Part shown: in pieces, positions 3,967 to 15,829 of the stretch
Position numbering within the stretch: the stretch's first letter is position 1
Layout of the letters: each line of letters starts with the position of its first letter
Origin: Pseudomonadota bacterium
Lineage (GTDB): Bacteria; Desulfobacterota; QYQD01
Direction: 5' to 3'
DNA length: 49,446 nucleotides
NCBI GenBank assembly: GCA_011046395.1
Contig: DSAQ01000131.1
Coordinates: 1 to 49,446 of the forward strand
Position numbers and translations under genes: made by a program
Notes under the pieces: model-generated
Database searches by the model: none
What the model was told of the DNA's origin: nothing
The model's input: the letters and a program-made list of their open reading frames with translations, nothing else

Positions 3967-5019
3967 ATGGATAAGACTGGCATTAAAAATGGGCCACAGG
4001 CTTTAACAAGCCGTAGAGATTGTCTCAAAATCATAGGGATGCTCGGCCTGGGTATGGCCGTCCCAAGCGTTTGGCCGACATCATCCGAGGCCAAACTTTC
4101 TAACGGTCTTAATCAGGTCAGTAGAACCCTTCCCCTTATGGGCACTTTTGTCAATATAACCGTGCTGCATCCATCTCAGGACAGGGCCATCGAGGCTGTG
4201 GAAAAGGGCTTTGCACGGATGGAGGAACTAGTCAAGGTATTTGACCGCTACTCTAACAGCACCCCGGTATCCTGGTTAAACCATAAGGGACAACTTAAGG
4301 ACGTCTGCCCTGAACTAGCACTGGTTATGAGCAAGGCCGCCTACTTTCATTTCCTGAGCCAGGGTTCTTTTGACATAACAGTGCAGCCCCTTGTTGACTT
4401 TTATAAAGAAGCATTTGCCAAGACCGGCCATGCGCCGTCACCAGAAAAGGTTAAAGAAAAATTAGCCCTAGTTGATGCCGATAAGATACAGTTTAATAAG
4501 CAAGGTATTCGTTTTTTAAAAGAAGGCATGGGCATCACCCTCGATGGTATTGCTAAAGGGTATATTGTTGACGAAGCCGCCAACGCCCTGAAGAAAATAG
4601 GCATACAGTATGCGCTGATCAATGCCGGTGGGGATATACGGGCCATTGGCGGGAACGGCCCGGATAAGTCCTGGAAAATCGGCATTACCGACCCTTGTAA
4701 GCGTAAGGAATATCTACAGATTATACAATTGAATAATGGCGCAATAGCTACCTCGGGTAACTACGAGGTCTATTTTGATCGGGAAAAGCTCTACCACCAC
4801 ATTATTGATACGCATACCGGCCGGTCTCCCAGAAATACTGCAAGTGTAAGTATTACAGCACCCACGGTTATGGAGGCCGACGCGCTTTCCACCACTGTCT
4901 TTGTTGAAGGCATAGAAAAAGGCATGCGGCTTGTGGAGGCATTGCCGAATGTGGAGGCTATGGTAATAATAACCAGCGGGAATAAGAAATTCGCTTCTAA
5001 GGGTTGGAAGACGGCCTAA
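3967..5019 (+). CDS. apbE: FAD:protein FMN transferase ApbE, Tat-exported
   Basis: Twin-arginine motif SRRDCLKI followed by a hydrophobic stretch. ApbE signatures ITLDGIAKGYIVD, LINAGGDI and ATSGNYE. SD ggaaaggagagg lies upstream of the ATG. Confidence 0.9.
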   Translation: MDKTGIKNGPQALTSRRDCLKIIGMLGLGMAVPSVWPTSSEAKLSNGLNQVSRTLPLMGTFVNITVLHPSQDRAIEAVEKGFARMEELVKVFDRYSNSTPVSWLNHKGQLKDVCPELALVMSKAAYFHFLSQGSFDITVQPLVDFYKEAFAKTGHAPSPEKVKEKLALVDADKIQFNKQGIRFLKEGMGITLDGIAKGYIVDEAANALKKIGIQYALINAGGDIRAIGGNGPDKSWKIGITDPCKRKEYLQIIQLNNGAIATSGNYEVYFDREKLYHHIIDTHTGRSPRNTASVSITAPTVMEADALSTTVFVEGIEKGMRLVEALPNVEAMVIITSGNKKFASKGWKTA

Positions 5020-5046: not shown

Positions 5047-5089
5047 AAAACGCCAGTCCATGTAACATGAGCTGGCGTTTTTTATTTTT
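5047..5089 (+). terminator. Rho-independent terminator of apbE
   Basis: aacgccagtccatgtaacatgagctggcgtt stem-loop followed by ttttttattttt. Confidence 0.75.
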
Positions 5090-5106
5090 CGACAACAACC
5101 AACATG

Positions 5107-5158
5107 TAGCCGCAACCTTTAGGTTGCGCTGTTATGCGCAGGCTAAAGCCTGCGGCTA
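5107..5158. repeat. REP-like double hairpin
   Basis: tagccGCAACCtttaGGTTGCgc ... gcGCAGGCtaaaGCCTGCggcta: two adjacent 6-bp stem-loops, with outer tagccgca/tgcggcta complementarity. Lies in a convergent intergenic region. Confidence 0.5.
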
Positions 5159-5181
5159 TAAGCTGGCTACAAGCTTATGGC

Positions 5182-6072
5182 TTACGGCACCAACAGCGTC
5201 GGAAGCTCAGATGCCTCGGCTATACGGTGTGAGACACTCCCGATAAAAAACTCCTTAACGCGATCCTTCCCTGTCGTTCCCTGTACAATCATGGTGGAGT
5301 TCAACTCTCGAGAAAGCCGTATAATCTCACTCGCGGTACGCCCGGCGGCCAGATGGGGCTCGGCCTCAAGCCCCGCTTTCTTCAAAGTCGCACAGTATTT
5401 GTCCAGCCTTTCCTTACTTTCCTTCTCTATTCGATATAACTCTGTCTTATCGAGACCTTTGGATATCTTAACCCCAATTACGTGGACCACATCTACTTTA
5501 TCTACAGCGCCCTTCAGGGATGTGATAAATTCAAGCGCATTCTGCGATGGTTTCGACCAATCCGTAGCGAACAAGGGCCTCTGGAAGGGATGTTCATTAA
5601 CACGCCTTACACATTGTCCCTCCATATCACAATAAACCATATACTTGCTTATAAGAACCGGGATGGCCGTACTCCGGCGCAATAAATCAAGGGTATGTGA
5701 ACCCACATAGACTTTTTCCAGGGCTGTCCGTTTTTTCCGTCCGGCTACAATCAGGTTGACCTTCTCCTTTTCAGCAATTCTGACTAGCTTTGGAACCGGC
5801 TCGCCAACCTCGATGCGGATTTTACTGTCCACACCTGCCTTGGACAGGGCCTCCTGCCAATCCTCAAACCGGATCCGGGCCTGCTCCCGCAGACGCTCCT
5901 CTTCATCCTTCATGTAGCCCCCGTAAGGCACAAAGCCCACTTCCTCGCGGGGGATTATGTAGGTGAGGATTATCTCCTTAAGCCCGGCCGCCTTCAAATC
6001 CAGAAGGGACTCCAGGGCGTCAAAGGCCAATTCCCTGAATTTAGTGGCGAACAAAACCTTGGTAAGTTTCAT
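5182..6072 (-). CDS. Tandem-domain universal stress protein
   Basis: About 296 aa with two USP-like halves (KVLFATKF...LIVAGRKKRT...GSHTLDLLRRSTAIPVLI and a second half ending MIVQGTTGKDR...GSVSHRIAEASELPTLLV). Start ATG 6072 is preceded by AAGGAGGG. Confidence 0.8.
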   Translation of the reverse strand: MKLTKVLFATKFRELAFDALESLLDLKAAGLKEIILTYIIPREEVGFVPYGGYMKDEEERLREQARIRFEDWQEALSKAGVDSKIRIEVGEPVPKLVRIAEKEKVNLIVAGRKKRTALEKVYVGSHTLDLLRRSTAIPVLISKYMVYCDMEGQCVRRVNEHPFQRPLFATDWSKPSQNALEFITSLKGAVDKVDVVHVIGVKISKGLDKTELYRIEKESKERLDKYCATLKKAGLEAEPHLAAGRTASEIIRLSRELNSTMIVQGTTGKDRVKEFFIGSVSHRIAEASELPTLLVP

Positions 6073-6082
6073 AGAACCCTCC

Positions 6083-7528
6083 TTATACAAAAAAGATGAA
6101 GCTTATAACAATAAATGTCGAAATCAAAAAGGGAATAGAATACTTGAGCATATACCCGAAGAAACTGGGCATAGGCGTACCTGCTTCCTCAGCGATAGAT
6201 CTTACCATAAAGTTCGGGGCATTGCCAATGTAAGTGCAGGCTCCAAAAAATACCGCGCCGGCCGCGATGCCTTTAAGATATATGTTATTTTCCGCAATCA
6301 AAAGCGGCACGGCCTGCGCCTCGGCCATACCCGGATAGAAACCACCCAGGGCCGTACTGAAGAAAGTCAGATACGTAGGCGCATTGTCCAGGAAGCTGGA
6401 AAGCATACCGGTCATCCAGAAGTAGTGTATGGGCTCCTTAACGGTCTCAATGAGAAAAGCCAGTTGTCCCTTTGCCCCGGCCTTGAGGATCAGGAGACAG
6501 GGAACCATGGTCAAAAATATACCGATGAAGAGATAAGCTACTTCCTGTATAGGAAACCACGTGAAGTCATTGTCTTCCCGGAGTTTCTTGGGGGTAGCAA
6601 TCAGGGATAAAACACCCAGGAGAATCAAAAGGCCGTCCCGCACCCACTCCTGAACACCGCGATGCACACCCAGTACGGATATTTCTCCCCATTTGACCAT
6701 GCCGCTCATCAGCACGGCGCCTACCACACCGCCCAGGAATATAAAGTTATAGATACCTTCGACTTTAAGCGGTTCCTTGACCCCTTCTTCTACCGGGGCC
6801 GTGACACCCTCTTTTTTGTAGAAATAGGTATCGAGAACAAAGTATATCACTAACAATATGCCAACTGCCACCAACATATGGGGCAGGATGTTGAATGTCC
6901 AGAAAAAGGGGACTCCGTGCAGAAAACCAAGAAATAAAGGCGGGTCGCCCAGGGGTGTCAAGGAACCACCGATATTGGCCACCAGGAATATAAAGAAGAC
7001 GACCATAAAGGTCCGGTACTTCCGGTAGTTATTGGCCCGCAGGAAGGGGCGGATCATCAGCATGGCCGCCCCGGTAGTACCCATCCACGAGGCCAGCGCC
7101 GTACCAATGATAAGCATGACCGTATTTACCACCGGCGTACCTCTCAAACTCCCCCGGAGCAGAATTCCGCCCGCTATCGTATAGAGTGCCCAAAGGAGAA
7201 TAATGAAAGGCACATAGTCCGCCAGTATAATGTGCAGAAACTCATAAAGCGCCTGCCCTTTGTACGCAATCAGGAAAGGGATGGCTATGGCTGCGGCCCA
7301 GAAGGCAGAGATCTTGCCGAAGTGATGATGCCAGAACTTCGGTGCGAAGAGAGGAAAAAGCGCTATGGAAAGCAGCATCCCGGCAAAGGGAATGCAGCTA
7401 TAAAGCGGCAGTACCTCACCTAAATTGATTCCGCCATGCCCGTGCCCGGCCTCAGAGGCCAGCGCAACCGATGGGAACACGGTTAGGCATAACAACAAAA
7501 AAAGCAACGACAACTTCCCTCGAGTCAT
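6083..7528 (-). CDS. ArsB/NhaD-superfamily ion transporter (putative Na+/H+ antiporter or CitMHS-like permease)
   Basis: 481-aa polytopic membrane ORF with more than 10 hydrophobic segments and a signal-like N-terminus followed by GHGHGG. The family assignment comes from overall resemblance, not from a diagnostic motif. Confidence 0.55.
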   Translation of the reverse strand: MTRGKLSLLFLLLCLTVFPSVALASEAGHGHGGINLGEVLPLYSCIPFAGMLLSIALFPLFAPKFWHHHFGKISAFWAAAIAIPFLIAYKGQALYEFLHIILADYVPFIILLWALYTIAGGILLRGSLRGTPVVNTVMLIIGTALASWMGTTGAAMLMIRPFLRANNYRKYRTFMVVFFIFLVANIGGSLTPLGDPPLFLGFLHGVPFFWTFNILPHMLVAVGILLVIYFVLDTYFYKKEGVTAPVEEGVKEPLKVEGIYNFIFLGGVVGAVLMSGMVKWGEISVLGVHRGVQEWVRDGLLILLGVLSLIATPKKLREDNDFTWFPIQEVAYLFIGIFLTMVPCLLILKAGAKGQLAFLIETVKEPIHYFWMTGMLSSFLDNAPTYLTFFSTALGGFYPGMAEAQAVPLLIAENNIYLKGIAAGAVFFGACTYIGNAPNFMVRSIAEEAGTPMPSFFGYMLKYSIPFLISTFIVISFIFFV

Positions 7529-7574
7529 AAGTATTCTCCTCTAGTATCCTCTGCAGAATCTTATGGCTTTCCAG

Positions 7575-8015
7575 TTAAGCCACTACCTTTGTAATCTTTG
7601 GATTGTAGGACTGATCTCCGCTATATTTGAGGTGGGCGTAATATTTTAGGCCGATGAAGGTAAGTACGACGAACAAAAGACTAAAAACGGCCCCTGAAAT
7701 ATCCTTATCGCCCAAAACCTGCGAGTGATAACCTATCAGCGCCCCGGCCACCAGACCGGCCAAGGGAACAAGATATAAGATAAAGGATGCCTTTACTCCC
7801 CCCTCCACCTTAAGCGAGACACGCACCCGCTGGCCTTTGGAGGCCCCTACGGTATTTAATGCCGTAAGCACTGTCTCGCCTTCGCCAAGCAGCCCGCACG
7901 TCTTGTGGGTCGAGCAACTGTCACACGCCGGGCTGCGCCTTATCCTAACCTTAGCCTGGTTGCCTTCAACGGCAACTACTTCTCCTTCTTCTTCGCGAAT
8001 ATGGGCCATTCTCAA
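7575..8015 (-). CDS. rseC: RseC/MucC family protein (SoxR-reducing system component)
   Basis: N-terminal beta-rich domain with Cys cluster ACDSCSTHKTCG, followed by two C-terminal TM helices. The typical RseC architecture, and its genomic linkage to rnf/rsx. Confidence 0.7.
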   Translation of the reverse strand: MRMAHIREEEGEVVAVEGNQAKVRIRRSPACDSCSTHKTCGLLGEGETVLTALNTVGASKGQRVRVSLKVEGGVKASFILYLVPLAGLVAGALIGYHSQVLGDKDISGAVFSLLFVVLTFIGLKYYAHLKYSGDQSYNPKITKVVA

Positions 8016-8488
8016 TCCACAACCCAGACCGTACAGTTCCGTACAGAGCTTACCACCTTGTTTGAGACGCTGCCGAACATAAATTCCTTTATTGCAGAAA
8101 CGCCTCTTCGCCCGACAACTATGGTATTATACTTTCCTTCCTGGGCCTCAAGCATAATGTCCCTGGCTATACCGACCTTTTTTACCTGAATCTTGACAGT
8201 TATCCTGTTACCAGAGATACCTGCTTCCTCCATAATTTTCCTGGCTGAAGCCGCAACGGATTCCATCATCTTGCGCTTCTCTTCCGTCAGTCCCTTTAAC
8301 TCCAGCATCTTACTGGCAAAGACGGGATGCAGCGAGGGTTCTTTTTCCAGGCCAGTGCCGGGAGCTTCCGGAAGCACACTGAATAGGGTTACCTCCACGG
8401 CCTTTGGGTTCACGGTATCAGCCACATACCGCACCGCCTTCATGGAATATTCTGACTCATCCATGGCTATCAATATCTTCTGAGACAT
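8012..8488 (-). CDS. Universal stress protein
   Basis: KILIAMDESEYS ... IVVGRRGVSAIKEFMFGSVSNKVVSSVRNCTVWVV (USP ATP-binding motif). Begins 11 nt downstream of rnfB. Confidence 0.85.
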   Translation of the reverse strand: MSQKILIAMDESEYSMKAVRYVADTVNPKAVEVTLFSVLPEAPGTGLEKEPSLHPVFASKMLELKGLTEEKRKMMESVAASARKIMEEAGISGNRITVKIQVKKVGIARDIMLEAQEGKYNTIVVGRRGVSAIKEFMFGSVSNKVVSSVRNCTVWVVD

Positions 8489-8499
8489 TCAACGCCTCC

Positions 8500-9306
8500 T
8501 CATACTACAGTGAAAACTAAGCTTTGAATAATACCGGTCGGGCACTTCTCAAAACACTTCCCGCAACCCGTGCATTTGGTGTGATCCACGACCGAAAGGA
8601 ACTTCACCACCTCAACCGCCTTTTCCGGACACGCCTTTTTACACAAGCCGCATCCCAGACAGCCGGCCTCACATATCTCCTTGACCAGCTTGCCAACATC
8701 ATGCGAGCTGCACAGGCTGGCCGCTTTCTGCGATACCGGAACTACCTTAGGGATATGCCGCGGACACAGCTTAACACATGTCCCGCAGGCCGTACATTTC
8801 TCATCATCTACCCTGGGCAGGCCGTCTTCACCCATGCTGAGCGCCCCAAATGGACAATTGGCCACGCAGGTACCCAGCCCCAGGCATCCGTAACTGCAAG
8901 ATTTATCACCACCGGAGACCAGCATGGCCGCCCGGCAGTCATTAATACCCATGTATTTGAACTTTCTTTCGGCCCTGGCACTGTCGCCTTTACAGAAGAT
9001 CCGGGCTACCTCGCGTTCTGCCGCCGCGGCCGAAATACCCAGCACGCCGGCCACTGCCTGCGCCACCGAGGCCCCGCCGGCCTTACAGGCGTTAACCGGC
9101 GCTTTGCCTTCCACCATAGCCGCCGCACAGTCGCTGCAGCCGGCGTAGCCGCAGCCGCCACAATTGGCGCCCGGCAATACATCTGCCACCTGGCCGATGC
9201 GCGGATCGACATAAACAAAGAATACTTTGGCGGCAACACCCAGGAGAATGCTCAAAAACACCCCTAGACCGCCCATGGCTAAGATCGCTGTCGTTACTGG
9301 TCCCAT
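8500..9306 (-). CDS. rnfB: Rnf complex subunit B (polyferredoxin)
   Basis: N-terminal TM helix. LPGANCGGCGYAGCSDCA matches the RnfB Fe-S domain. Several CxxCxxCxxxCP ferredoxin motifs follow. Confidence 0.9.
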   Translation of the reverse strand: MGPVTTAILAMGGLGVFLSILLGVAAKVFFVYVDPRIGQVADVLPGANCGGCGYAGCSDCAAAMVEGKAPVNACKAGGASVAQAVAGVLGISAAAAEREVARIFCKGDSARAERKFKYMGINDCRAAMLVSGGDKSCSYGCLGLGTCVANCPFGALSMGEDGLPRVDDEKCTACGTCVKLCPRHIPKVVPVSQKAASLCSSHDVGKLVKEICEAGCLGCGLCKKACPEKAVEVVKFLSVVDHTKCTGCGKCFEKCPTGIIQSLVFTVV

Positions 9307-9342
9307 TTTTACTTACCCTCTTATTAACTTAGATTCTGAAAA

Positions 9343-9924
9343 CTACTTGGCCAGCCCTAAAAGCCCGGCAAATGTTAATCCCATCATGCCGGCCGTTATC
9401 AAACAGATGGGAACGCCTTGTAGCAACTTGGGTACACGCGCTGTAGAATCCATCCGCTCCCGGATACCGGCCAGTAATATAAGAGCCATGTTAAAACCTA
9501 ACGCCGTCGATATGGCATAGACTAGGGCTTGCATAAAGGTGTATTCTTCTTTTATATTAAGCACTGCCACACCAAATATCATACAGTTCGTGGTAATCAG
9601 GGGTAAGAAGATACCGAGCGCCCGGTACAGGGGCGGCGCGACCTTTTGCATGATGATCTCTACAAGCTGTACCAGAGCCGCAATTACCAGAATAAAAACA
9701 AGAGTCTGGAGGTATTCCAGTCCGAAAACATCCAATACGGTTTTTTGGAGTATCCAACAGATGAGGCTAGCCAGCACATTGACAAAAAGAACTGCCGCCG
9801 ACATGCCCAGAGCACTACTCATGGAACTTGAGACGCCAACGAAAGGACAATTTCCCAAAAACCTAATCAATAGAATATTATTAATAAATATGGCTGAAAC
9901 CACCAACATCAGATAATCTTCCAT
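9343..9924 (-). CDS. rnfA: Rnf complex subunit A
   Basis: FLGNCPFVGVS and GIFLPLITTNC...LAGIRERM are near-identical to conserved RnfA/RsxA blocks. Confidence 0.92.
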   Translation of the reverse strand: MEDYLMLVVSAIFINNILLIRFLGNCPFVGVSSSMSSALGMSAAVLFVNVLASLICWILQKTVLDVFGLEYLQTLVFILVIAALVQLVEIIMQKVAPPLYRALGIFLPLITTNCMIFGVAVLNIKEEYTFMQALVYAISTALGFNMALILLAGIRERMDSTARVPKLLQGVPICLITAGMMGLTFAGLLGLAK

Positions 9925-9973
9925 CGCCTGCTCCTCAATTATAAATTAGAACGCAAATTTTCGCCGATACCCG

Positions 9974-10058
9974 CAGAAAATTATTTTCTGTATTTAAAAC
10001 CTTGACAATCTGCGTTCACCCTGTTGAATAAGGGCCCCTTTGGAAAATTCAACAGGGT
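9974..10058 (-). other. Two perfect stem-loops in the 148-nt rnfE-rnfA spacer
   Basis: cagaaaa-tta-ttttctg (9974..9990), and caccctgttgaat...attcaacagggt (10017..10058) with a loop of about 17 nt. Confidence 0.6.
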
Positions 10059-10072
10059 TTATCCGCGTCCTA

Positions 10073-10684
10073 CTATTTACGTTTTCTTCTCCCCCGCGCC
10101 GAGATCACATTCATGATTCCCAAAAGCAGCCCCAGGCAAACAAAGGCCCCAACGGGCCTGATCATGAATTCAAATCCTGGATAGCCCTCCCACATCACCG
10201 GAAGACCAAACCAGGTACCCTTACCCAGAATCTCGCGTATGGTAGCCACAACAACCAGCGAAATAGTAAAACCAAGCCCCATTCCCACTCCGTCAGCTAA
10301 GGAAAGCATAACGCCTTCCTTGCGGGCAAAGGCCTCGGCACGCCCCAAAACCAAACAGTTCACAACGATCAATGGAATCCAGATGCCTAACACGAGGAAA
10401 AGAGAATAAAAATACGCCTGCATGGTCAGCTCAACTATAACCACGCCAGTGGCGATAATAACAATAAAGACGGCAATACGGACTTTGTCCGGGATTATCT
10501 TACGCAAAGCCGAAACCAGCACATTACTCATGGTTGTCACGAAAATGACGGCACATCCCAGACCGAGGCCGTTTTTTACATCCGTCGTAACTGCCAGAAC
10601 CGAGCAAAGCCCCAATACAAAACGGAAGGGTGCTATCTCTTTCCATAAGCCTTTTGTAAACTCTTTAACAATGCGCGCTGCCAT
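10073..10684 (-). CDS. rnfE: Rnf complex subunit E
   Basis: GLWKEIAPFRFVLGLCSVLAVTT and LGIWIPLIVVNCLVLGRAEAFA match conserved RnfE/RsxE blocks. Confidence 0.92.
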   Translation of the reverse strand: MAARIVKEFTKGLWKEIAPFRFVLGLCSVLAVTTDVKNGLGLGCAVIFVTTMSNVLVSALRKIIPDKVRIAVFIVIIATGVVIVELTMQAYFYSLFLVLGIWIPLIVVNCLVLGRAEAFARKEGVMLSLADGVGMGLGFTISLVVVATIREILGKGTWFGLPVMWEGYPGFEFMIRPVGAFVCLGLLLGIMNVISARGRRKRK

Positions 10685-10702
10685 CTATATAACCCCCTTC
10701 TC

Positions 10703-11287
10703 CTAGAACCCCAGTTGAGATTTATGCTTGGTGTACAGTTCCACGCCCGACTTCACGGCATTACTTACAGCGGTAGATGAAACCGTGGCGCCACTCAAAC
10801 CCTGGATCTCAGCGCCCAGGCTAAAATTAGCAGTTAGAGGCTTGCCCACAAACTGGGCACAAAAAGACGGATCTTCCTTGACCCTTGTCCCCACGCCGGG
10901 AGTCTCAGACAGGGTAGTCACTGCAACACCCTGCATCGTGCCGTCGGGCTTGACGGCCATCATCACACCTACGTTTCCGGCAAATCCCGGGGCCTCAGTC
11001 TCAAAGGCAATGGTAATGACCTGACCGGCTTTCTTGGCATAAAAGAAGGTAGTCGCAACATCTTTGCCCTTCTTGTCCTTGCCGGTTACAATCTCCTTCC
11101 GATCAGAAACCGGGTCATTATCATAGCCAACCAAGATCTGTTTCAAGGCCGGTTCTTTAATAAACTTGATTTTCTGATAGGTAATCTGGTCTGCCGTCGA
11201 AATACGCACCAAAGCTAATCCGCCCCCACAAACAGCGGAAACAATCGTCAGTACGACAATCATTTTGATAATATCACGAAGAGACAC
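10703..11287 (-). CDS. rnfG: Rnf complex subunit G (FMN-binding, periplasm-facing)
   Basis: N-terminal anchor helix. FMN_bind region with the flavinylation motif LSGATVSS. Confidence 0.9.
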   Translation of the reverse strand: MSLRDIIKMIVVLTIVSAVCGGGLALVRISTADQITYQKIKFIKEPALKQILVGYDNDPVSDRKEIVTGKDKKGKDVATTFFYAKKAGQVITIAFETEAPGFAGNVGVMMAVKPDGTMQGVAVTTLSETPGVGTRVKEDPSFCAQFVGKPLTANFSLGAEIQGLSGATVSSTAVSNAVKSGVELYTKHKSQLGF

Positions 11288-12245
11288 TGGCTTTTACCCT
11301 CCCATAGACTCTTGGTTTGATCTTATCCAACAATGGCGTCAACATGCTTATGATAAATATGGCAAAATAGGCCCCATCAATCCACTGGGACCACATACGA
11401 ATAATCATAGCCAGCACCCCACAAAGAAGACCGTAAATAATCATCCCCGGCTTGGTTACGGGTGACGTTGTGGGATCAGTAGCCAGGAAGAAAGCAGCCA
11501 AAAAGCCCCCGCCGGCTAACAAATGGAATACAGGACTGGCATATTGTTCAGCGTCAGATAGCCAGAAGATACCGGAAAATATGACCATACCTAAAAGAAA
11601 GCTCGCCGGGATGTACCAGGAAATAGTGCGCCTTATGATAAGGAAGATACCGCCGAGTAACAAAGCGACCTTGGAGACCTCACCGATAGCCCCAATGATG
11701 GGTATCCCAAGTAAGAGATCTTTGTTGGTAAAATACATCGCAAGAGAAGAAACTCCTTCGTCCCTCAGCACCTGCAAAGGAGGAAACTCCGTCATTAAAT
11801 CTCCCTCCGGGATAGCCCAGGCAATCATCTGCTGCGGATAGGACAACTGCAAAGCAACATAAGCCACGAGAACTCCATTAAATGGATTGCAGCCCCGGCC
11901 GCCATAAATCTCTTTTCCAAGAAGAATCAGTAACAAAGTACCAATGATAATGATCCACCAGGGGAGCGTAGGCGGCAGGAGCATTGCGAAGATAAGGCCG
12001 CTGGCTGCTCCGCTTAAATCGCTGACTGTTATCTCACGCCCCATCATCTTCTGAAAGATTGCTTCCCAGGCCACTGCGGAGATAACGGAAATGGCTATAA
12101 CCTTAAGTGCTGCAAAACCGTAAAGGTAGCAGCCCATACCGACTGCCGGAAGTAAGGCTATAATTATAGAAAGCATCATTTTCCGCACAGAGTTGCCGCT
12201 ATGGATATGCGGCGTAGCAGATACGACAAGTTCCGGGGCTTTCAT
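11274..12245 (-). CDS. rnfD: Rnf complex subunit D (atypical: canonical flavinylation Thr not found)
   Basis: Conserved blocks SATPHIHSG, GKEIYGGRGCNPFN, GEVSKVALLLGG and FFLATDPTTSP match RnfD/NqrB. Overlaps rnfG by 14 nt and rnfC by 4 nt. Confidence 0.88.
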   Translation of the reverse strand: MKAPELVVSATPHIHSGNSVRKMMLSIIIALLPAVGMGCYLYGFAALKVIAISVISAVAWEAIFQKMMGREITVSDLSGAASGLIFAMLLPPTLPWWIIIIGTLLLILLGKEIYGGRGCNPFNGVLVAYVALQLSYPQQMIAWAIPEGDLMTEFPPLQVLRDEGVSSLAMYFTNKDLLLGIPIIGAIGEVSKVALLLGGIFLIIRRTISWYIPASFLLGMVIFSGIFWLSDAEQYASPVFHLLAGGGFLAAFFLATDPTTSPVTKPGMIIYGLLCGVLAMIIRMWSQWIDGAYFAIFIISMLTPLLDKIKPRVYGRVKASVSS

Positions 12246-13537
12246 TCGCTACTCCTTTGCGCCATAATTTGTGCCTTGCCAAATTTTATCCAGTGCACCA
12301 TTGGTATCATTACCGGGCACACGTAGGCACAGCATCCACATTCAATGCATGTGAATATATCATTGTCCTGAGCCTTCGAATACATCCCTTTTTCTGAAAA
12401 ACCGGAAATAATAAACGGCATCAGGCCCACAGGGCAAATCTCCACACATAACCCGCATTTAATACAGACAGCCGCATCGAACCTGGTAATATCTTTTTCA
12501 TGCTGGACAAAAATACCCAGCACCTCTTTGGTCACCGGCGTCTCGGTATTGGCAATGGCCGTGCCCATCATGGGGCCACCAGATATAACCTTGCCCATCC
12601 CTTCCACAGAAATTCCACAATGCCCTAAAACTTCCCTAATCGGTGTACCTATCCTTACCTGAACGTTCTTGGCTCCGGTACCATTGCTCCTGGTAACGGT
12701 GATAAACCTATCCACGACCGGCTTCTTCTCCGCCATAGCCCGGCCCACTGCCGCCACTGTCTCGACACTCAGGACCAGGGCGCCTATATCGGCCACACAA
12801 TAAGCCTCTGTACAGGGCACTTCCTTACCCAGTATCGACTTTACCAGTAAGAGATCAATTGCCTGGGGATACTTAGGGTTTAACCCCACTATGGTAGCCG
12901 CACCACCACAGGCAGAGCCAATAGCCGATATAGCCTGCGCGGCATTTTCATCGACAGCTATATACACCGATGCTGCTCCAATTATGCTTTTTATAGTATC
13001 TATCCCGCAGGCCACTTCCTGAACCCTTTCAGACAACAGACGTGACCGGCTCGAGAGTACCGGCTCTATGTCCATGGCATTCACAATAAGGGCATTAGCC
13101 CGGCGAGACTTTGCCTCATTGAGCTTCGCGACAAGAGGGACCGGCTTTATATCGAAATCAACGATTCCCGCCTGTTGTATGGTGGTCAATGGATCTGCGC
13201 TGCTCTCCAGTCCTACCCACTCATCCTTGCCATCAGATTCTATGACCACAGCCGGGACGAATCCCCCTAAAAGATGGGGATAGGCCTTTATTACCTCGGC
13301 TACTTTACCGGAAACCGTGGCATGGATGGAAGCCCCTTCCGGGGTAGCGCTTTCACCGATGACTTGTCCGACTTTGACCTCGTCACCCTTTTTAACCTTG
13401 GCATTACAAACTCCGCCGAGATCTTGTCTGAGAGGGATAGTTACAACACCGGAGGGGATGATACGTTCGAAGGGTTTATTTGCGCTTACATCTGAAATAG
13501 ACAAGCGAATACCGCCAGAAAAGCTACCTGCGCTCAT
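12242..13537 (-). CDS. rnfC: Rnf complex subunit C (atypical: FMN/NADH motifs degenerate)
   Basis: GGPMMG plus two ferredoxin motifs (CIKCGLCVEICP, CIECGCCAYVCP), collinear with E. coli RsxC as I recall it. SD GGAAGGAGAG lies upstream of the ATG. Confidence 0.88.
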   Translation of the reverse strand: MSAGSFSGGIRLSISDVSANKPFERIIPSGVVTIPLRQDLGGVCNAKVKKGDEVKVGQVIGESATPEGASIHATVSGKVAEVIKAYPHLLGGFVPAVVIESDGKDEWVGLESSADPLTTIQQAGIVDFDIKPVPLVAKLNEAKSRRANALIVNAMDIEPVLSSRSRLLSERVQEVACGIDTIKSIIGAASVYIAVDENAAQAISAIGSACGGAATIVGLNPKYPQAIDLLLVKSILGKEVPCTEAYCVADIGALVLSVETVAAVGRAMAEKKPVVDRFITVTRSNGTGAKNVQVRIGTPIREVLGHCGISVEGMGKVISGGPMMGTAIANTETPVTKEVLGIFVQHEKDITRFDAAVCIKCGLCVEICPVGLMPFIISGFSEKGMYSKAQDNDIFTCIECGCCAYVCPVMIPMVHWIKFGKAQIMAQRSSE

Positions 13538-13700
13538 ATTTGTTCACTCTCTCCTTCCAGCGAATTACGGGATTGGATATACCTAAACATACTCTTTGTC
13601 AAGAGAAAAAGGCGATATTATGATATGTAACTATGATTATCTCATAACCGGACCATTTACAAATGCAAATTTAAAATGGGACTAATACGGTCCGCAAAAG

Positions 13701-13732
13701 AAAAACGGGAAGTTTATAAACTTCCCGTTTTA
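13701..13732 (-). terminator. Palindromic rho-independent terminator between the cytochrome c3 gene and rnfC
   Basis: aacgggaagtt-tata-aacttcccgtt is a perfect hairpin, followed on the minus strand by tttttctttt. Confidence 0.7.
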
Positions 13733-13751
13733 AAAAACTACATCTGCTTAC

Positions 13752-14135
13752 TTATTTTTTGTGACATTCGCCACACATCACAGGGAGTGACTTGCCTGCT
13801 GCCAGTTTGGTCTCACGGTGACAACCCACACAATTCTCGTGAAAGGCCTTCATGAGCCCCATCTTCTTGCCCTCAGCCTTCAGGCCATGGCAGGTCGCAC
13901 AATTCGTCTCCCGCGACTCATCCCAGACATTCTCTCCATCTACATAAAAATGATGACACGCTGTACACTCAATGGTAGCAAAGTGCTGGGCATGTTGGAA
14001 TGTTACGGCCGGCCTCTGTCGATTTTCGAAGGCTTTATGTTCCAGCTTTATCACTTCCTCCTGGGCGTAAGCACAGGTAGCTATTATAAAAATAGCCAAA
14101 ACTATCATTAGCAGAATGCCCTTGTTATTTCTCAT
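13752..14135 (-). CDS. Tetrahaem cytochrome c3 family protein, periplasmic
   Basis: Signal peptide ending CAYAQE. Four haem motifs CTACHH, CATCHG, CVGCHR and CGECHK, with the class III cytochrome c3 spacing (VTFQHAQH...C..CHH). SD AGGAGG. Confidence 0.88.
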   Translation of the reverse strand: MRNNKGILLMIVLAIFIIATCAYAQEEVIKLEHKAFENRQRPAVTFQHAQHFATIECTACHHFYVDGENVWDESRETNCATCHGLKAEGKKMGLMKAFHENCVGCHRETKLAAGKSLPVMCGECHKK

Positions 14136-14527: not shown

Positions 14528-15829
14528 TCATTTTGATAAGAAAATATCGAATAACTCCACCAGATGCACAGCCTGCGCATTAAGCCCATGTCTAGATAAG
14601 CCTTCCTTCCACTGCAATAGGCAACCCATACAACTGGTGACTAACATGTCCACGTCCATGTCTTTTAGTACCATAATTCGCCTGGCGAGGATTTCACACG
14701 ATAAATCGTAATGGGTAAGGTTGAATAGTCCACCGTGTCCACAGCATGCGGGGCCATCCTCGAATTCACGGAAATCAACGCCCGGTAAAGACCTGATAAG
14801 CAGGCGCGGTTCCTCGATAATATTCTGTTTAAATCGAAAATGGCATGGATCGTGATACCTCACCTTCAAAATTTCATCTTTTACCGTCAAGGCGTACAAA
14901 TACCGGGGGAAGTCCCTCTCATGAAACAAAAAAGCCGATATATCTATCACTTTTGCCGAAAACTCCGCCGCTTTTTCTGCAAAAACCGGGTCACCGGCCA
15001 GGAGTTTAGGATAATTAAATCTTAGATGTGAGCTGCAAGAGGCGCAGTTCGTAATGATGTGATCGCATCGGCTGTCAATAAATACGGATATATTGGCCCT
15101 GGCCAAGGATTGTGCCGTCTCTTCATCCCCGGCCGCAAAGGCCGGAAACCCGCAGCATTTTTGTTTTTCAGGCACATAAATGGGCTCGCCAAGAAAATCA
15201 AAAATATTCAGGATGGCCTTACCAACGTCAGGGAAAAGATAATTTGTGACGCACCCTGTAAAGTAGGCAGCCTTAACTGAGGTGCTCGTCTCTTCTGACG
15301 AGTTCTCCTCCAGAAAAAACTTCTCGGCTAATGCCGGCAACCATGATCTTCCGGCTAACAGGGGAATCGGAAACCGACAATGAAGACCGCTATCTTCCGG
15401 GACTCTTTTACAAAGAAGGCCCTGGATCAGGGAACCGCCTTTTAATATAAAAGGCAAAAGATGTTCAGAATCCAGAAGGTAATGAAAAAAGCACCGTTTC
15501 CCCGCAGGAAGCCCCTTCTCTTCGACCAACCTTGCCCGCGCTTCCTGTATGGAGGCATCCGCATTTACCCCGGCGGGACAGGCATTTGAACAGGCCCCGC
15601 AAAGGAGGCAGTAAGATAGCAGCTCGGCAAAGCGGTCAGAAAACGGCAACCTGCCTTCCCGGTTCGCCTCGATAAGACTCAATTTACCCCGGGGCGCATA
15701 AACCTCCATTCCTGTCACCTGGTAAACAGGACAAACGCTCATACACGTCCCGCATTTGTTGCATGAGGGTGTGCTAATGGATTCTACCTCCTGATCTCCA
15801 CTTTCTTTATCTCTCCCTGTACTTATCAA
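14528..15829 (-). CDS. (Fe-S)-binding CCG-domain oxidoreductase (GlcF/HdrD-like)
   Basis: Two N-terminal 4Fe-4S motifs (CNKCGTCMSVCP, CLLCGACSNACP) and two C-terminal CCG motifs (KCCGFPAF, ACCGHGGL). No TM segments. Confidence 0.8.
   Translation of the reverse strand: MISTGRDKESGDQEVESISTPSCNKCGTCMSVCPVYQVTGMEVYAPRGKLSLIEANREGRLPFSDRFAELLSYCLLCGACSNACPAGVNADASIQEARARLVEEKGLPAGKRCFFHYLLDSEHLLPFILKGGSLIQGLLCKRVPEDSGLHCRFPIPLLAGRSWLPALAEKFFLEENSSEETSTSVKAAYFTGCVTNYLFPDVGKAILNIFDFLGEPIYVPEKQKCCGFPAFAAGDEETAQSLARANISVFIDSRCDHIITNCASCSSHLRFNYPKLLAGDPVFAEKAAEFSAKVIDISAFLFHERDFPRYLYALTVKDEILKVRYHDPCHFRFKQNIIEEPRLLIRSLPGVDFREFEDGPACCGHGGLFNLTHYDLSCEILARRIMVLKDMDVDMLVTSCMGCLLQWKEGLSRHGLNAQAVHLVELFDIFLSK

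What the first reader, a model, noticed from the sequence alone, without database searches (positions are those of the whole stretch)
11274..12245. RnfD lacks the covalent-FMN acceptor threonine while RnfG keeps it
In RnfD/NqrB the FMN is attached to the last Thr of a D-x-x-(S/T)-x-A-T-P-L motif (E. coli RsxD DGISQATPL, from memory). The aligned segment here is DLMTEFPPL, so the acceptor position is Pro. The only (G/S)AT tripeptide in the ORF is SAT at the N-terminus (VVSATPHI), which corresponds to the unrelated SSSPH block. RnfG retains LSGATVSS, and a Tat-exported ApbE flavin transferase is encoded nearby. Together with the RnfC loss, two consecutive redox stations of the NAD-proximal branch look absent.
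Basis: partly seen in the sequence, partly recalled or inferred. Interest (0 to 1): 0.62.

Follow-up and report, generated by a model that had tools for sequence, protein, structure and literature searches.

The report
Rnf variant without RnfD flavin anchor
The RnfD membrane subunit of this sulfate-reducer-type bacterium has proline where all characterised Rnf/Nqr pumps anchor a flavin, and its RnfC has lost the NADH/flavin pocket; together these mark a small, conserved subfamily of Rnf that is very unlikely to be the textbook ferredoxin:NAD+ pump.

Summary
RnfD (11274-12245, minus strand) aligns end to end with solved RnfD structures. Pro155 (CCT, 11781-11783) sits exactly where A. woodii Thr156 and C. 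tetanomorphum Thr153 carry covalent FMN. RnfG keeps its SGAT threonine and a Tat-signal ApbE lies nearby. RnfC has GIVDFDIKPVPL in place of GxGGxxFPT and NAMDIEP in place of NGAECEP.

This is not a private defect. It marks a well-supported Thermodesulfobacteriota clade of rnfCDGEAB operons with a small RnfB. In that clade RnfC always carries the same remodelled, conserved motifs. The RnfD acceptor flips among P/A/S/T (at least 8 changes in 30 loci), and polar FMN-pocket residues are replaced by Tyr/Trp/Phe.

RnfC's eight Fe-S cysteines, RnfD's riboflavin ligands, the RnfA/E cluster cysteines and RnfB are all kept. All genes are under purifying selection (dN/dS about 0.1).

My best reading is a NAD-independent Rnf. 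Ferredoxin electrons cross RnfB, the RnfA/E [2Fe-2S] cluster and RnfG-FMN, and probably leave to periplasmic c3-type cytochromes. A TmcA-like tetrahaem gene sits upstream.

This is a new variant of a known kind and of moderate interest.

The parts
11274..12245 (-). rnfD, 323 aa. Membrane subunit with Pro155 at the covalent-FMN acceptor position. FMN-pocket residues are changed (L89, Y129, Y293). Riboflavin ligands N123 and D257 are kept.
11775..11801 (-). Loop D149-L-M-T-E-F-P155-P-L157, the counterpart of D-x-x-[ST]-x-A-T-P-L. The acceptor codon CCT lies at 11781-11783.
12242..13537 (-). rnfC, 431 aa. It has the RnfC_N and Complex1_51K folds and two [4Fe-4S] motifs (12431-12466 and 12314-12349). 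The FMN loop is remodelled to GIVDFDIKPVPLVAKL (13121-13168) and the NADH/FMN motif to VNAMDIEP (13043-13084).
10703..11287 (-). rnfG, 194 aa. Periplasmic FMN_bind subunit with an intact LSGATVSS motif (10775-10798, acceptor Thr168). It is the only FMN_bind domain in the genome.
10073..10684 (-). rnfE, 203 aa. The [2Fe-2S] ligands Cys27 and Cys110 are present.
9343..9924 (-). rnfA, 193 aa. The [2Fe-2S] ligands Cys26 and Cys114 are present.
8500..9306 (-). rnfB, 268 aa. This is the small form: an N-terminal anchor, an FeS domain and ferredoxin-type clusters, with no NAD(P)-binding extension.
13752..14135 (-). Secreted tetrahaem cytochrome c3 (4 CxxCH). It is TmcA-like (NF045722, 111.7 bits against a cut-off of 114). 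It lies directly upstream of rnfC in all 7 genomes of the family.
13702..13731 (-). Terminator-like 13-bp hairpin plus a T-run between the cytochrome gene and rnfC. It is conserved with compensatory changes in relatives and is followed by a conserved TTGACA promoter-like box.
8012..8488 (-). Universal stress protein gene directly after rnfB. It is present downstream of rnfB in 14 of 29 clade loci.
7575..8015 (-). RseC/MucC-family small membrane protein with a Cys-rich N-terminus. It is present downstream of rnf in 18 of 29 clade loci.
3967..5019 (+). ApbE flavin transferase with a twin-arginine signal (SRRDCLK).

Best explanation
The operon encodes a distinct Thermodesulfobacteriota subfamily of the Rnf complex: rnfCDGEAB with a small RnfB, usually followed by usp and rseC.

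Shown here:
- RnfC keeps its fold and both [4Fe-4S] clusters. Its NuoF-type FMN/NADH pocket has been rebuilt into a different conserved motif, G-x-V-D-[FY]-[DG]-x4-P-L-x2-K-L and N-[AG]-x-D-x-E-P.
- RnfD has lost the requirement for covalent FMN. The acceptor column drifts among Pro, Ala, Ser and Thr, the -1 Ala is free, and the polar contacts of the FMN pocket are replaced by Tyr, Trp or Phe.
- The ferredoxin entry half is intact: RnfB, the RnfA/E [2Fe-2S] cysteines, the flavinylated RnfG, and ApbE.

Inferred:
- The complex has no recognisable NAD(P)H site, so it is very unlikely to be a ferredoxin:NAD+ oxidoreductase. No other NuoF-type (Complex1_51K) domain was found in the genome.
- Electrons from ferredoxin cross RnfB, then the RnfA/E cluster, then FMN on RnfG. 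According to Kumar et al. 2025, that segment is the one that drives Na+/H+ translocation.
- The electrons then leave to a periplasmic c3-type cytochrome, or enter from it when the pump runs in reverse. In this family the candidate is the TmcA-like tetrahaem protein encoded just upstream.
- RnfD and RnfC remain as scaffold. Their riboflavin and Fe-S centres have an unresolved role.

Graded confidence: no covalent FMN on RnfD, about 0.9. Not a ferredoxin:NAD+ enzyme, about 0.8. Exit or entry through RnfG to cytochrome c, about 0.4.
For: - Pro155 lies at the acceptor column in pairwise alignments to solved structures and in multiple alignments.
- Pocket residues: C. tetanomorphum R130->Y129 (W33/Y26/F1 in the 60 nearest homologues), S284->Y293 (Y54/F6) and N90->L89. 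N123, D257 and G246 are invariant or nearly so.
- The RnfC motifs show a sharp boundary. P0121-P0189 are remodelled and P0190-P0240 are canonical. All eight Cys are kept in both groups.
- The RnfD tree gives a 30-locus clade with SH-aLRT 98. Acceptor counts are P14, A6, T6 and S4. Column 155 changes 8 times and column 154 changes 9 times, against a median of 5; column 156 (Pro) changes once.
- dN/dS is 0.09-0.16 for cyt, rnfC, rnfD, rnfG and rnfB.
- The genome (98% complete) has one RnfD/NqrB gene, one FMN_bind domain and one Complex1_51K domain. RnfB is 268 aa with no NAD domain.
- A tetrahaem c3 gene lies upstream of rnfC in 7 of 7 genomes of the family and in 2 of 5 genomes of a second family, f40. 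It is TmcA-like, whereas a basic type-I-like c3 (pI 9.5) is encoded elsewhere.
- Literature: Na+ is pumped by RnfA/E, and RnfD only transfers electrons (PMC11889175). M. acetivorans Rnf does not use NAD and is proposed to hand electrons from RnfG to a cytochrome c (PMC4023990).
Against: - RnfC's eight Fe-S cysteines and RnfD's riboflavin ligands are strictly conserved. A mere scaffold would not be expected to keep them; NqrA lost its cysteines.
- The old FMN pocket of RnfC has acquired new invariant residues (D127, D156, R164), which hints at a new function there.
- Some clade members keep a complete D-x-x-T-x-A-T motif (L006, L009, L011).
- About 20 of the roughly 29 clade loci have no adjacent cytochrome gene.
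- In this family a conserved terminator hairpin and a separate promoter-like box lie between the cytochrome gene and rnfC. The cytochrome is therefore probably not co-transcribed.
- In D. alaskensis, which has a different Rnf type, the operon's cytochrome DhcA was dispensable under the conditions where Rnf was needed (PMC4215793).
- There are no biochemical data for any member of this subfamily.
Confidence: 0.45

Rival explanations
1. The U-shaped electron path is still used. A flavin sits non-covalently in the aromatic-lined RnfD pocket, or Tyr/Trp side chains relay electrons. Electrons pass through the riboflavin to RnfC's two [4Fe-4S] clusters. From there they reach an unknown cytoplasmic acceptor or donor, not NAD(H), that binds at the remodelled and conserved RnfC pocket or docks on RnfC.
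For: All eight RnfC cysteines are kept in the remodelled clade. The riboflavin ligands N123 and D257, plus G246, are invariant or nearly so. New invariant D127, D156 and R164 occur in the former FMN pocket. The rest of the RnfD loop (D149, T152, P156, L157) is conserved. A full flavinylation motif is retained in some members. The literature on the Tol2-type Rnf also calls for an RnfC acceptor or donor other than NAD(H) (PMC5109826). Non-covalent flavin sites have been proposed for NqrB/RnfD-like subunits that lack the Thr (PMC10979944).
Against: The acceptor and the -1 residue evolve faster than the median column. The polar FMN contacts are gone. From memory, not checked here, replacing the acceptor Thr in NqrB causes loss of that FMN. 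No candidate partner gene is conserved next to rnfC; only usp and rseC recur, and both lie downstream of rnfB.
Confidence: 0.3
2. It is still an ordinary ferredoxin:NAD+ oxidoreductase. NADH and FMN bind to RnfC through the altered motifs, and RnfD holds FMN without the phosphoester bond.
For: RnfC still matches Complex1_51K over the whole domain (E=3.8e-21) and passes NCBIfam TIGR01945. All databases name these proteins RnfC and RnfD.
Against: The glycine-rich loop that wraps the FMN phosphate is replaced by D-F-D, and the E-C-E-P motif by D-I-E-P. These changes are fixed across a whole clade, with a sharp boundary to canonical sequences. In a segment profile the clade scores at least 79 bits and everything else at most 61 bits. 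RnfC scores below the RsxC equivalog cut-off (306 against 345).
Confidence: 0.07
3. The operon is decaying or non-functional, or the Pro is a sequencing or assembly artefact.
For: Two cofactor sites are missing. The window comes from a fragmented assembly of 261 contigs.
Against: All reading frames are intact and dN/dS is about 0.1. The same residues occur in independent MAGs. It is the only Rnf in a 98%-complete genome. The subfamily is conserved across several families.
Confidence: 0.02

Closest known systems
Canonical Rnf (ferredoxin:NAD+ oxidoreductase; A. woodii 9ERI, C. tetanomorphum 7ZC6, A. vinelandii 8AHX)
   Same: Same six subunits and gene order, rnfCDGEAB. RnfD is about 40% identical over its full length (E=3.7e-63). 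RnfG has the SGAT threonine. The RnfA/E [2Fe-2S] cysteines, the RnfB clusters, the RnfC [4Fe-4S] motifs and the riboflavin ligands are all present.
   Different: RnfD has Pro at the covalent-FMN threonine and aromatic residues at R130 and S284. RnfC lacks the GxGGxxFPT and NGAECEP motifs. No NAD(H) site is recognisable.
Tol2-type / 'Rnf2' of Desulfobacteraceae (D. toluolica, D. multivorans; PMC5109826) and the DhcA-led Rnf of Desulfovibrionaceae (locus L070)
   Same: Sulfate-reducer Rnf in which RnfC has no NADH/FMN site. A c-type cytochrome gene lies next to rnfC. The RnfD acceptor is also not Thr (A in L070, Y in L035 and L045). They group together in the RnfD tree (35-row clade, SH-aLRT 99). 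The window's RnfG matches the RnfG_DVU2794 model best.
   Different: The Tol2 type has an RnfB of about 700 aa carrying a NAD(P)-binding flavoprotein domain. Its RnfC has the FMN loop deleted and gives no 51K Pfam hit. In the window, RnfB is 268 aa with no such domain. RnfC keeps the 51K fold with substituted, conserved motifs.
Methanosarcina acetivorans Rnf with multihaem cytochrome MmcA (ferredoxin:methanophenazine)
   Same: It is NAD-independent, has a cytochrome c gene next to rnfC, and RnfG-FMN has been proposed as the exit to the cytochrome (PMC4023990).
   Different: In M. acetivorans the known cofactor sites of RnfC and RnfD are reported as conserved (bioRxiv 2022.07.20.500911), and mmcA is co-transcribed with rnf. 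Here the sites are lost and a terminator separates the cytochrome gene from rnfC. Scores against the Methanosarcina equivalog models are far below cut-off.
Na+-NQR (NqrA is the cofactor-less homologue of RnfC; NqrB is the homologue of RnfD)
   Same: It is a precedent for the RnfC-type subunit losing its NADH/FMN function while being kept in the complex.
   Different: NqrA also lost its Fe-S clusters. NqrB keeps the covalent FMN threonine; the Nqr-type loci all have GAT. NADH enters through NqrF, which has no counterpart here.
Two-subunit Nqr/Rnf-like complexes (Meheust 2021; PMC10979944)
   Same: An NqrB/RnfD-like subunit whose flavinylation threonine is not conserved, while the NqrC/RnfG-like partner is flavinylated.
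   Different: Those have only two subunits, with a NAD-binding domain fused to the RnfD-like protein. The system here is a complete six-subunit Rnf.

Membership tests
Rnf complex (RnfABCDGE) | Six subunit genes C, D, G, E, A and B in one cluster | tested here: met
   rnfCDGEAB lies at 8500-13537 on the minus strand, with Pfam and NCBIfam hits for all six.
Rnf complex (RnfABCDGE) | RnfD belongs to the NqrB/RnfD family at full length | tested here: met
   PF03116 E=2.7e-99. TIGR01946 scores 285.9 against a cut-off of 207. 9eri_D E=3.7e-63.
Rnf complex (RnfABCDGE) | Thr/Ser acceptor for covalent FMN in the RnfD periplasmic loop (D-x-x-[ST]-x-A-[TS]-P-L) | tested here: not met
   Pro155 occupies the acceptor position and Phe154 the -1 Ala position.
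Rnf complex (RnfABCDGE) | Riboflavin ligands in RnfD (A. woodii N123 and D249) | tested here: met
   N123 and D257 are present, and nearly invariant in the clade.
Rnf complex (RnfABCDGE) | RnfG [ST]GA[TS] flavinylation site, with ApbE available | tested here: met
   LSGATVSS with Thr168, and a Tat-ApbE at 3967-5019.
Rnf complex (RnfABCDGE) | Four Cys ligands of the membrane [2Fe-2S] cluster in RnfA/RnfE | tested here: met
   RnfA C26 and C114, RnfE C27 and C110, in the LGxC and xNC motifs.
Rnf complex (RnfABCDGE) | RnfC NuoF-type FMN/NADH motifs (GxGGxxFPT and NGAECEP) | tested here: not met
   The motifs read GIVDFDIKPVPL and VNAMDIEP, and these are fixed across the clade.
Rnf complex (RnfABCDGE) | Two [4Fe-4S] motifs in RnfC | tested here: met
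   CIKCGLCVEICP and CIECGCCAYVCP.
Rnf complex (RnfABCDGE) | Ferredoxin:NAD+ oxidoreductase activity coupled to ion transport | not testable with these tools
   This needs enzyme assays.
Tol2-type / Rnf2 complex | Large RnfB (about 700 aa) with a NAD(P)-binding domain | tested here: not met
   RnfB is 268 aa and has only Fe-S domains. Compare L070, whose RnfB is 701 aa with Pyr_redox_2.
Tol2-type / Rnf2 complex | RnfC lacks the NADH-ubiquinone-oxidoreductase (51K) and SLBB domains | tested here: not met
   The window's RnfC matches Complex1_51K across positions 1-149 of 150. Only the cofactor motifs are replaced. L070's RnfC has the loop deleted.
Tol2-type / Rnf2 complex | c-type cytochrome gene adjacent to rnfC | tested here: met
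   A tetrahaem c3 gene at 13752-14135 lies 214 nt upstream of rnfC.
Methanosarcina-type Rnf (MmcA-RnfCDGEABX) | Cytochrome co-transcribed as the first gene of the operon | tested here: inconclusive
   The gene is adjacent in 7 of 7 family genomes. However, a conserved terminator hairpin and a promoter-like box lie between it and rnfC.
Methanosarcina-type Rnf (MmcA-RnfCDGEABX) | Passes the NCBIfam rnfC_Methano and rnfD_Methano equivalog models | tested here: not met
   Scores are 204 against a cut-off of 650, and 200 against 400.

The most novel reading that the evidence does not exclude
This subfamily has abandoned Rnf's return branch. It would be a ferredoxin:cytochrome c3 oxidoreductase: an ion pump whose electrons leave, or under reverse flow from H2 or formate enter, at the periplasmic FMN of RnfG. 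RnfD would no longer carry its flavin and RnfC would be converted to another use. If so, nature has already done the experiment that separates ion pumping (RnfB, RnfA/E, RnfG) from the RnfD/RnfC half. 'Rnf' in these sulfate reducers would then link ferredoxin to the periplasmic cytochrome pool and not to NADH.

A bolder sub-variant is that the Tyr/Trp residues fixed in the former FMN pocket act as an aromatic hopping relay in place of the flavin.
Probability: 0.35. Interest if true: 0.75.

Novelty: new variant of a known kind. Interest (0 to 1): 0.55.

Why it matters
Rnf is routinely annotated and modelled as a ferredoxin:NAD+ ion pump. The proteins here are named that way in every database that names them and pass the NCBIfam subfamily cut-offs.

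For this subfamily that assignment is very probably wrong. The subfamily includes Desulfonatronovibrio, Desulfonatronum, Desulfohalobiaceae, several Desulfobacterales and Syntrophobacter-like lineages. In an even sample of the phylum it occurs in about 2% of species outside the window's own family. Metabolic reconstructions of these sulfate reducers and syntrophs would then misplace a coupling site.

The subfamily is also a natural test of two current claims. One is that RnfD's covalent FMN is an obligatory station. The other is that ion translocation resides in RnfA/E and not in RnfD. Because cultured members exist, both claims can be tested directly.

Tried and rejected
- **Alternative acceptor in RnfD.** T152 is the conserved -3 residue of the motif, has Met at its own -1, and coexists with a true acceptor Thr in relatives that read TEATPL, so it is not a shifted acceptor. 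The N-terminal SAT aligns to the cytoplasmic SSSPH arm.
- **AlphaFold2 model of RnfD.** I used the 13-sequence alignment A2. Mean pLDDT was 51.6 and the loop at 113-195 scored below 50. This is too poor for a fold search or pocket inspection, so I did not use it.
- **First locus search.** The first attempt at search for related loci, with the diverse alignment A1, failed for lack of a conserved stretch. The closer alignment A2 worked.
- **Cytochrome adjacency as a clade-wide trait.** Rejected. It holds only in the window's family and in 2 of 5 genomes of family f40.
- **Second canonical Rnf or Nqr, or another NuoF-type protein, in the genome.** None was found.
- **Literature.** Six full-text searches found the Tol2/Rnf2 description and the two-subunit Nqr/Rnf-like case. 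None described a six-subunit, small-RnfB Rnf lacking the RnfD threonine. Subscription journals are not covered, so prior description cannot be excluded.
Full report
**1. What is there**

The minus strand of the window carries, in order:
- a secreted tetrahaem cytochrome c3 gene (13752-14135)
- rnfC (12242-13537)
- rnfD (11274-12245)
- rnfG (10703-11287)
- rnfE (10073-10684)
- rnfA (9343-9924)
- rnfB (8500-9306)
- a universal stress protein gene (8012-8488)
- an RseC/MucC-family gene (7575-8015)
- a CitMHS_2 permease gene (6083-7528)

An ApbE gene lies at 3967-5019 on the plus strand. NCBIfam places RnfC and RnfD above the Rnf subfamily cut-offs. RnfG matches the RnfG_DVU2794 model best, and the cytochrome matches the acidic tetrahaem c3 TmcA model best, at 111.7 bits against a cut-off of 114. 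The nearest public record is an uncultured Desulfovibrionales MAG, with 96% RnfD identity.

**2.

RnfD aligns over residues 5-319 with A. woodii RnfD (9eri_D, E=3.7e-63) and over 7-318 with C. tetanomorphum RnfD (7zc6_D). In both alignments DLMTEFPPL pairs with D(T/G)VTTATPL. Pro155 (CCT, 11781-11783) therefore replaces A. woodii Thr156 and C. tetanomorphum Thr153. The structure papers describe these threonines as covalently bound to FMN.

Multiple alignments with 120 homologues and 68 genomic loci give the same column. No other plausible [ST]x[AGS][TS] site exists. The N-terminal SAT aligns to the cytoplasmic SSSPH arm. RnfG keeps LSGATVSS, with Thr168. ApbE has a twin-arginine signal.

RnfC reads GIVDFDIKPVPLVAKL and VNAMDIEP where canonical RnfC reads GIVGLGGATFPTHVKL and LNGAECEP. 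Both CxxCxxCxxxCP motifs remain.

**3. It is a subfamily trait, not a private lesion**

*RnfC.* Among the 120 best RnfC homologues the division is sharp. P0121-P0189 all carry the remodelled consensus, G-x-[VA]-D-[FYL]-[DG]-x4-P-L-x2-K-L and N-[AG]-x-D-x-E-P. P0190-P0240 are canonical. All eight cysteines are kept in both groups. A 71-column profile of the remodelled segment has invariant G124, D127, K138, D156 and R164. In an even sample of 401 genomes of the phylum it separates 14 genomes (at least 79.5 bits) from all others (at most 61.4 bits). Seven of the 14 belong to the window's own family.

*Wider sequence space.* In the 1.84-billion-protein representative library, 1298 proteins match RnfC at E<=1e-30. 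Of the best 150 representatives, 116 have the canonical loop, 10 have this remodelled pattern and 24 have other non-canonical loops. Loss of the RnfC FMN loop is therefore recurrent, but this particular form is a small clade.

*RnfD.* In an RnfD tree built with the loop columns removed, the loci with a small RnfB and a remodelled RnfC form a 30-row clade (SH-aLRT 98). Inside it the acceptor is P in 14, A in 6, T in 6 and S in 4. These four residues share C at the second codon position, so they interconvert by single first-position changes.
- Column 155 needs 8 changes on the tree and column 154 (the -1 Ala of the motif) needs 9. The median column needs 5.
- D149, T152, P156 and L157 stay conserved, with 5, 4, 1 and 5 changes.

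Only the two residues that define the flavinylation site are released, not the loop as a whole.

*FMN pocket.* The contacts named for C. tetanomorphum are replaced throughout the 60 nearest homologues:
- R130 becomes W, Y or F.
- S284 becomes Y or F.
- N90 becomes L, I, M or V.
- The riboflavin/Na+ residues (N124 and D248 in C. tetanomorphum numbering; N123 and D257 here) and G237 (G246 here) are essentially invariant.

In loci with a canonical RnfC the acceptor is T or S in 10 of 10.

*Selection and copy number.* All genes are under purifying selection, with dN/dS between 0.09 and 0.16. The genome (98% complete) has no second RnfD/NqrB gene, no other FMN_bind protein and no other NuoF-type domain.

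**4. Context**

Downstream usp (14 of 29 loci) and rseC (18 of 29) are the only widely conserved neighbours. ApbE is close by in some loci.

A tetrahaem c3 gene directly upstream of rnfC occurs in all 7 genomes of the window's family and in 2 of 5 genomes of a second family, f40. It does not occur in the other loci. In the window's family the cytochrome gene is followed by a 13-bp terminator-like hairpin that shows compensatory substitutions among relatives. After the hairpin comes a conserved TTGACA box ahead of rnfC. The cytochrome is therefore probably a separate transcription unit.

The genome also encodes a lysine-rich type-I-like c3 elsewhere (pI 9.5). The rnf-adjacent cytochrome is near neutral (pI 7.2) and TmcA-like. 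TmcA-type cytochromes are known as the periplasmic subunits of membrane redox complexes; this point comes from my own knowledge.

**5. Mechanism**

*Shown.* The ferredoxin-side half is intact: RnfB, the four RnfA/E cysteines, and RnfG with ApbE. The NAD(H)/FMN site of RnfC and the covalent anchor of FMN in RnfD are gone. The Fe-S clusters of RnfC and the riboflavin ligands remain.

*Established elsewhere.* In A. woodii the electron path is RnfB, then the [2Fe-2S] cluster of RnfA/E, then FMN(G), FMN(D), riboflavin, the RnfC clusters and FMN(C), ending at NAD+. Na+ is translocated by RnfA/E, coupled to the [2Fe-2S] cluster, and RnfD serves only in electron transfer (PMC11889175). M. acetivorans Rnf does not use NAD and is proposed to deliver electrons from RnfG to a cytochrome c (PMC4023990).

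*Inferred.* This subfamily cannot reduce NAD+. The simplest working scheme is ferredoxin to RnfB, to the RnfA/E cluster, to FMN(G), to a periplasmic c3-type cytochrome, with ion pumping preserved. Run in reverse, it would make reduced ferredoxin from the H2- or formate-reduced cytochrome pool at the expense of the ion gradient.

*The main rival.* The strict retention of the RnfC clusters, the riboflavin ligands and a newly conserved RnfC pocket argues that the RnfD/RnfC half still does redox work. That would involve a non-covalent flavin or an aromatic relay in RnfD, and an unknown cytoplasmic partner. I rate the first scheme at about 0.4-0.45 and the rival at about 0.3. An ordinary ferredoxin:NAD+ enzyme is below 0.1, and decay or artefact is about 0.02.

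**6. Comparison with what is known**

The literature describes a 'D. toluolica Tol2-type' or Rnf2 complex. Its RnfC lacks the NADH-oxidoreductase and SLBB domains, its RnfB (about 700 aa) carries NAD-binding sites, and a cytochrome gene sits in the cluster (PMC5109826). The Pseudodesulfovibrio locus L070 shows this type, with a decahaem cytochrome, an RnfC whose FMN loop is deleted, and a 701-aa RnfB with Pyr_redox_2. Its RnfD acceptor is Ala.

The window's type groups with these in the RnfD tree (35-row clade, SH-aLRT 99) but differs. RnfB is small and RnfC keeps the 51K fold with substituted motifs.

D. multivorans 'Rnf1' is called A. woodii-type in that paper. I could not test whether it belongs to the present subfamily.

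Papers on flavinylation note a non-conserved Thr only for the two-subunit Nqr/Rnf-like systems. Within the searchable library I found no description of a six-subunit Rnf lacking the RnfD threonine.

**7. Verdict**

The feature is a new variant of a known kind: a third, small-RnfB form of the NAD-site-less Rnf of sulfate reducers, with a dispensable RnfD flavin anchor. Interest is moderate (0.55). It corrects a routine annotation, and it offers a natural dissection of the Rnf mechanism. Part of the picture was already known, however, and the function is still inferred.

**8. Side observations**

- In the five other same-genus genomes, rnfE has an in-frame TGA exactly at the codon of Cys110, one of the four ligands of the membrane [2Fe-2S] cluster. 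The frame continues in a conserved way, and a hairpin begins 15 nt downstream. SelA is present in all of these genomes, which makes a selenocysteine ligand likely.
- The window has TGT (Cys) at that position. Its rnfD-G-E-A block is 94-98% identical to that of another genus but only 68-82% identical to its own genus. For the cytochrome gene the pattern is reversed. This indicates a recombinational swap of the membrane core.

Earlier scan notes from this genome and others were read.

Noticed in passing
L003:7889-7891, L004 and L007 (same position), also L072, L073, L075-L077; window counterpart 10355-10357 (TGT, Cys110 of RnfE): In the same-genus relatives, rnfE has an in-frame TGA exactly at the Cys110 codon (IVVN-C-LVLGRAE becomes IVVN-TGA-VPLGRAE). 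Cys110 is one of the four ligands of the membrane [2Fe-2S] cluster. The frame continues and stays conserved. An 8-bp hairpin starts 15 nt after the TGA, though its fold z-scores are not significant. SelA is present in all 7 genomes checked. This is probably a selenocysteine Fe-S ligand in RnfE. No paper in the library links RnfE with selenocysteine.
   Followed up: partly
window 9343-14135 compared with L072 (G019, same genus) and L074 (G163, other genus): The operon is a mosaic. RnfD, G, E and A are 94-98% identical to the other genus but only 68-82% identical to same-genus genomes. The cytochrome c3 is 89% identical to the same genus and 70% to the other genus. RnfC and RnfB are about 88% identical to both. 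dS values agree with this pattern. The membrane core appears to have been swapped by recombination, bringing in the Cys version of RnfE in place of the TGA version.
   Followed up: partly
window 13538-13751 (minus strand): The spacer between the cytochrome gene and rnfC holds a terminator-like hairpin (13702-13731) with compensatory changes in relatives. A conserved CTTGACAAAGAG...TAGGTATATCC promoter-like box follows. A TTGACA box also precedes rnfC in family f40.
   Followed up: partly
L079-L084 (family f40, Syntrophobacter-like), RnfD loop: In this branch the whole D-x-x-T-x-A-T-P-L loop is replaced by a different conserved segment (MDISGSILGV...EDYSYFSEGYG). RnfC has the remodelled motif with Gly at the second Asp position (VDFGIDAVP). 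Two of the five genomes have a tetrahaem cytochrome gene upstream.
   Followed up: no
L070 (Pseudodesulfovibrio, GCA_004025585.1) 5048-11949: This is a Desulfovibrio-type Rnf: a decahaem cytochrome, an RnfC with the FMN loop deleted (no 51K Pfam hit), RnfD with Ala at the acceptor, and a 701-aa RnfB fused to a Pyr_redox_2/NAD_binding_8 domain. Rnf in D. alaskensis, a Desulfovibrio, is described in the literature as a ferredoxin:NADH oxidoreductase.
   Followed up: partly
Protein representatives P0246-P0385: About 24 of the best 150 RnfC representatives outside this clade also lack the canonical GxGGxxFP loop, for example GIIEIGTPALPLHVKL and GVVEIGPPSMPLHAKF. Loss of the RnfC FMN site seems to have happened repeatedly in other lineages.
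   Followed up: no
window 7575-8488: usp and rseC directly follow rnfB, and they do so in 14 and 18 of 29 clade loci respectively. RseC has a Cys-rich N-terminus (SPACDSCSTHKTCG) and could be an extra redox or assembly partner of this Rnf type.
   Followed up: partly
window 14528-15829 (minus strand): An HdrD/GlpC-like Fe-S protein with two CCG domains lies 392 nt upstream of the TmcA-like cytochrome gene. No TmcC-like membrane subunit was seen nearby.
   Followed up: no
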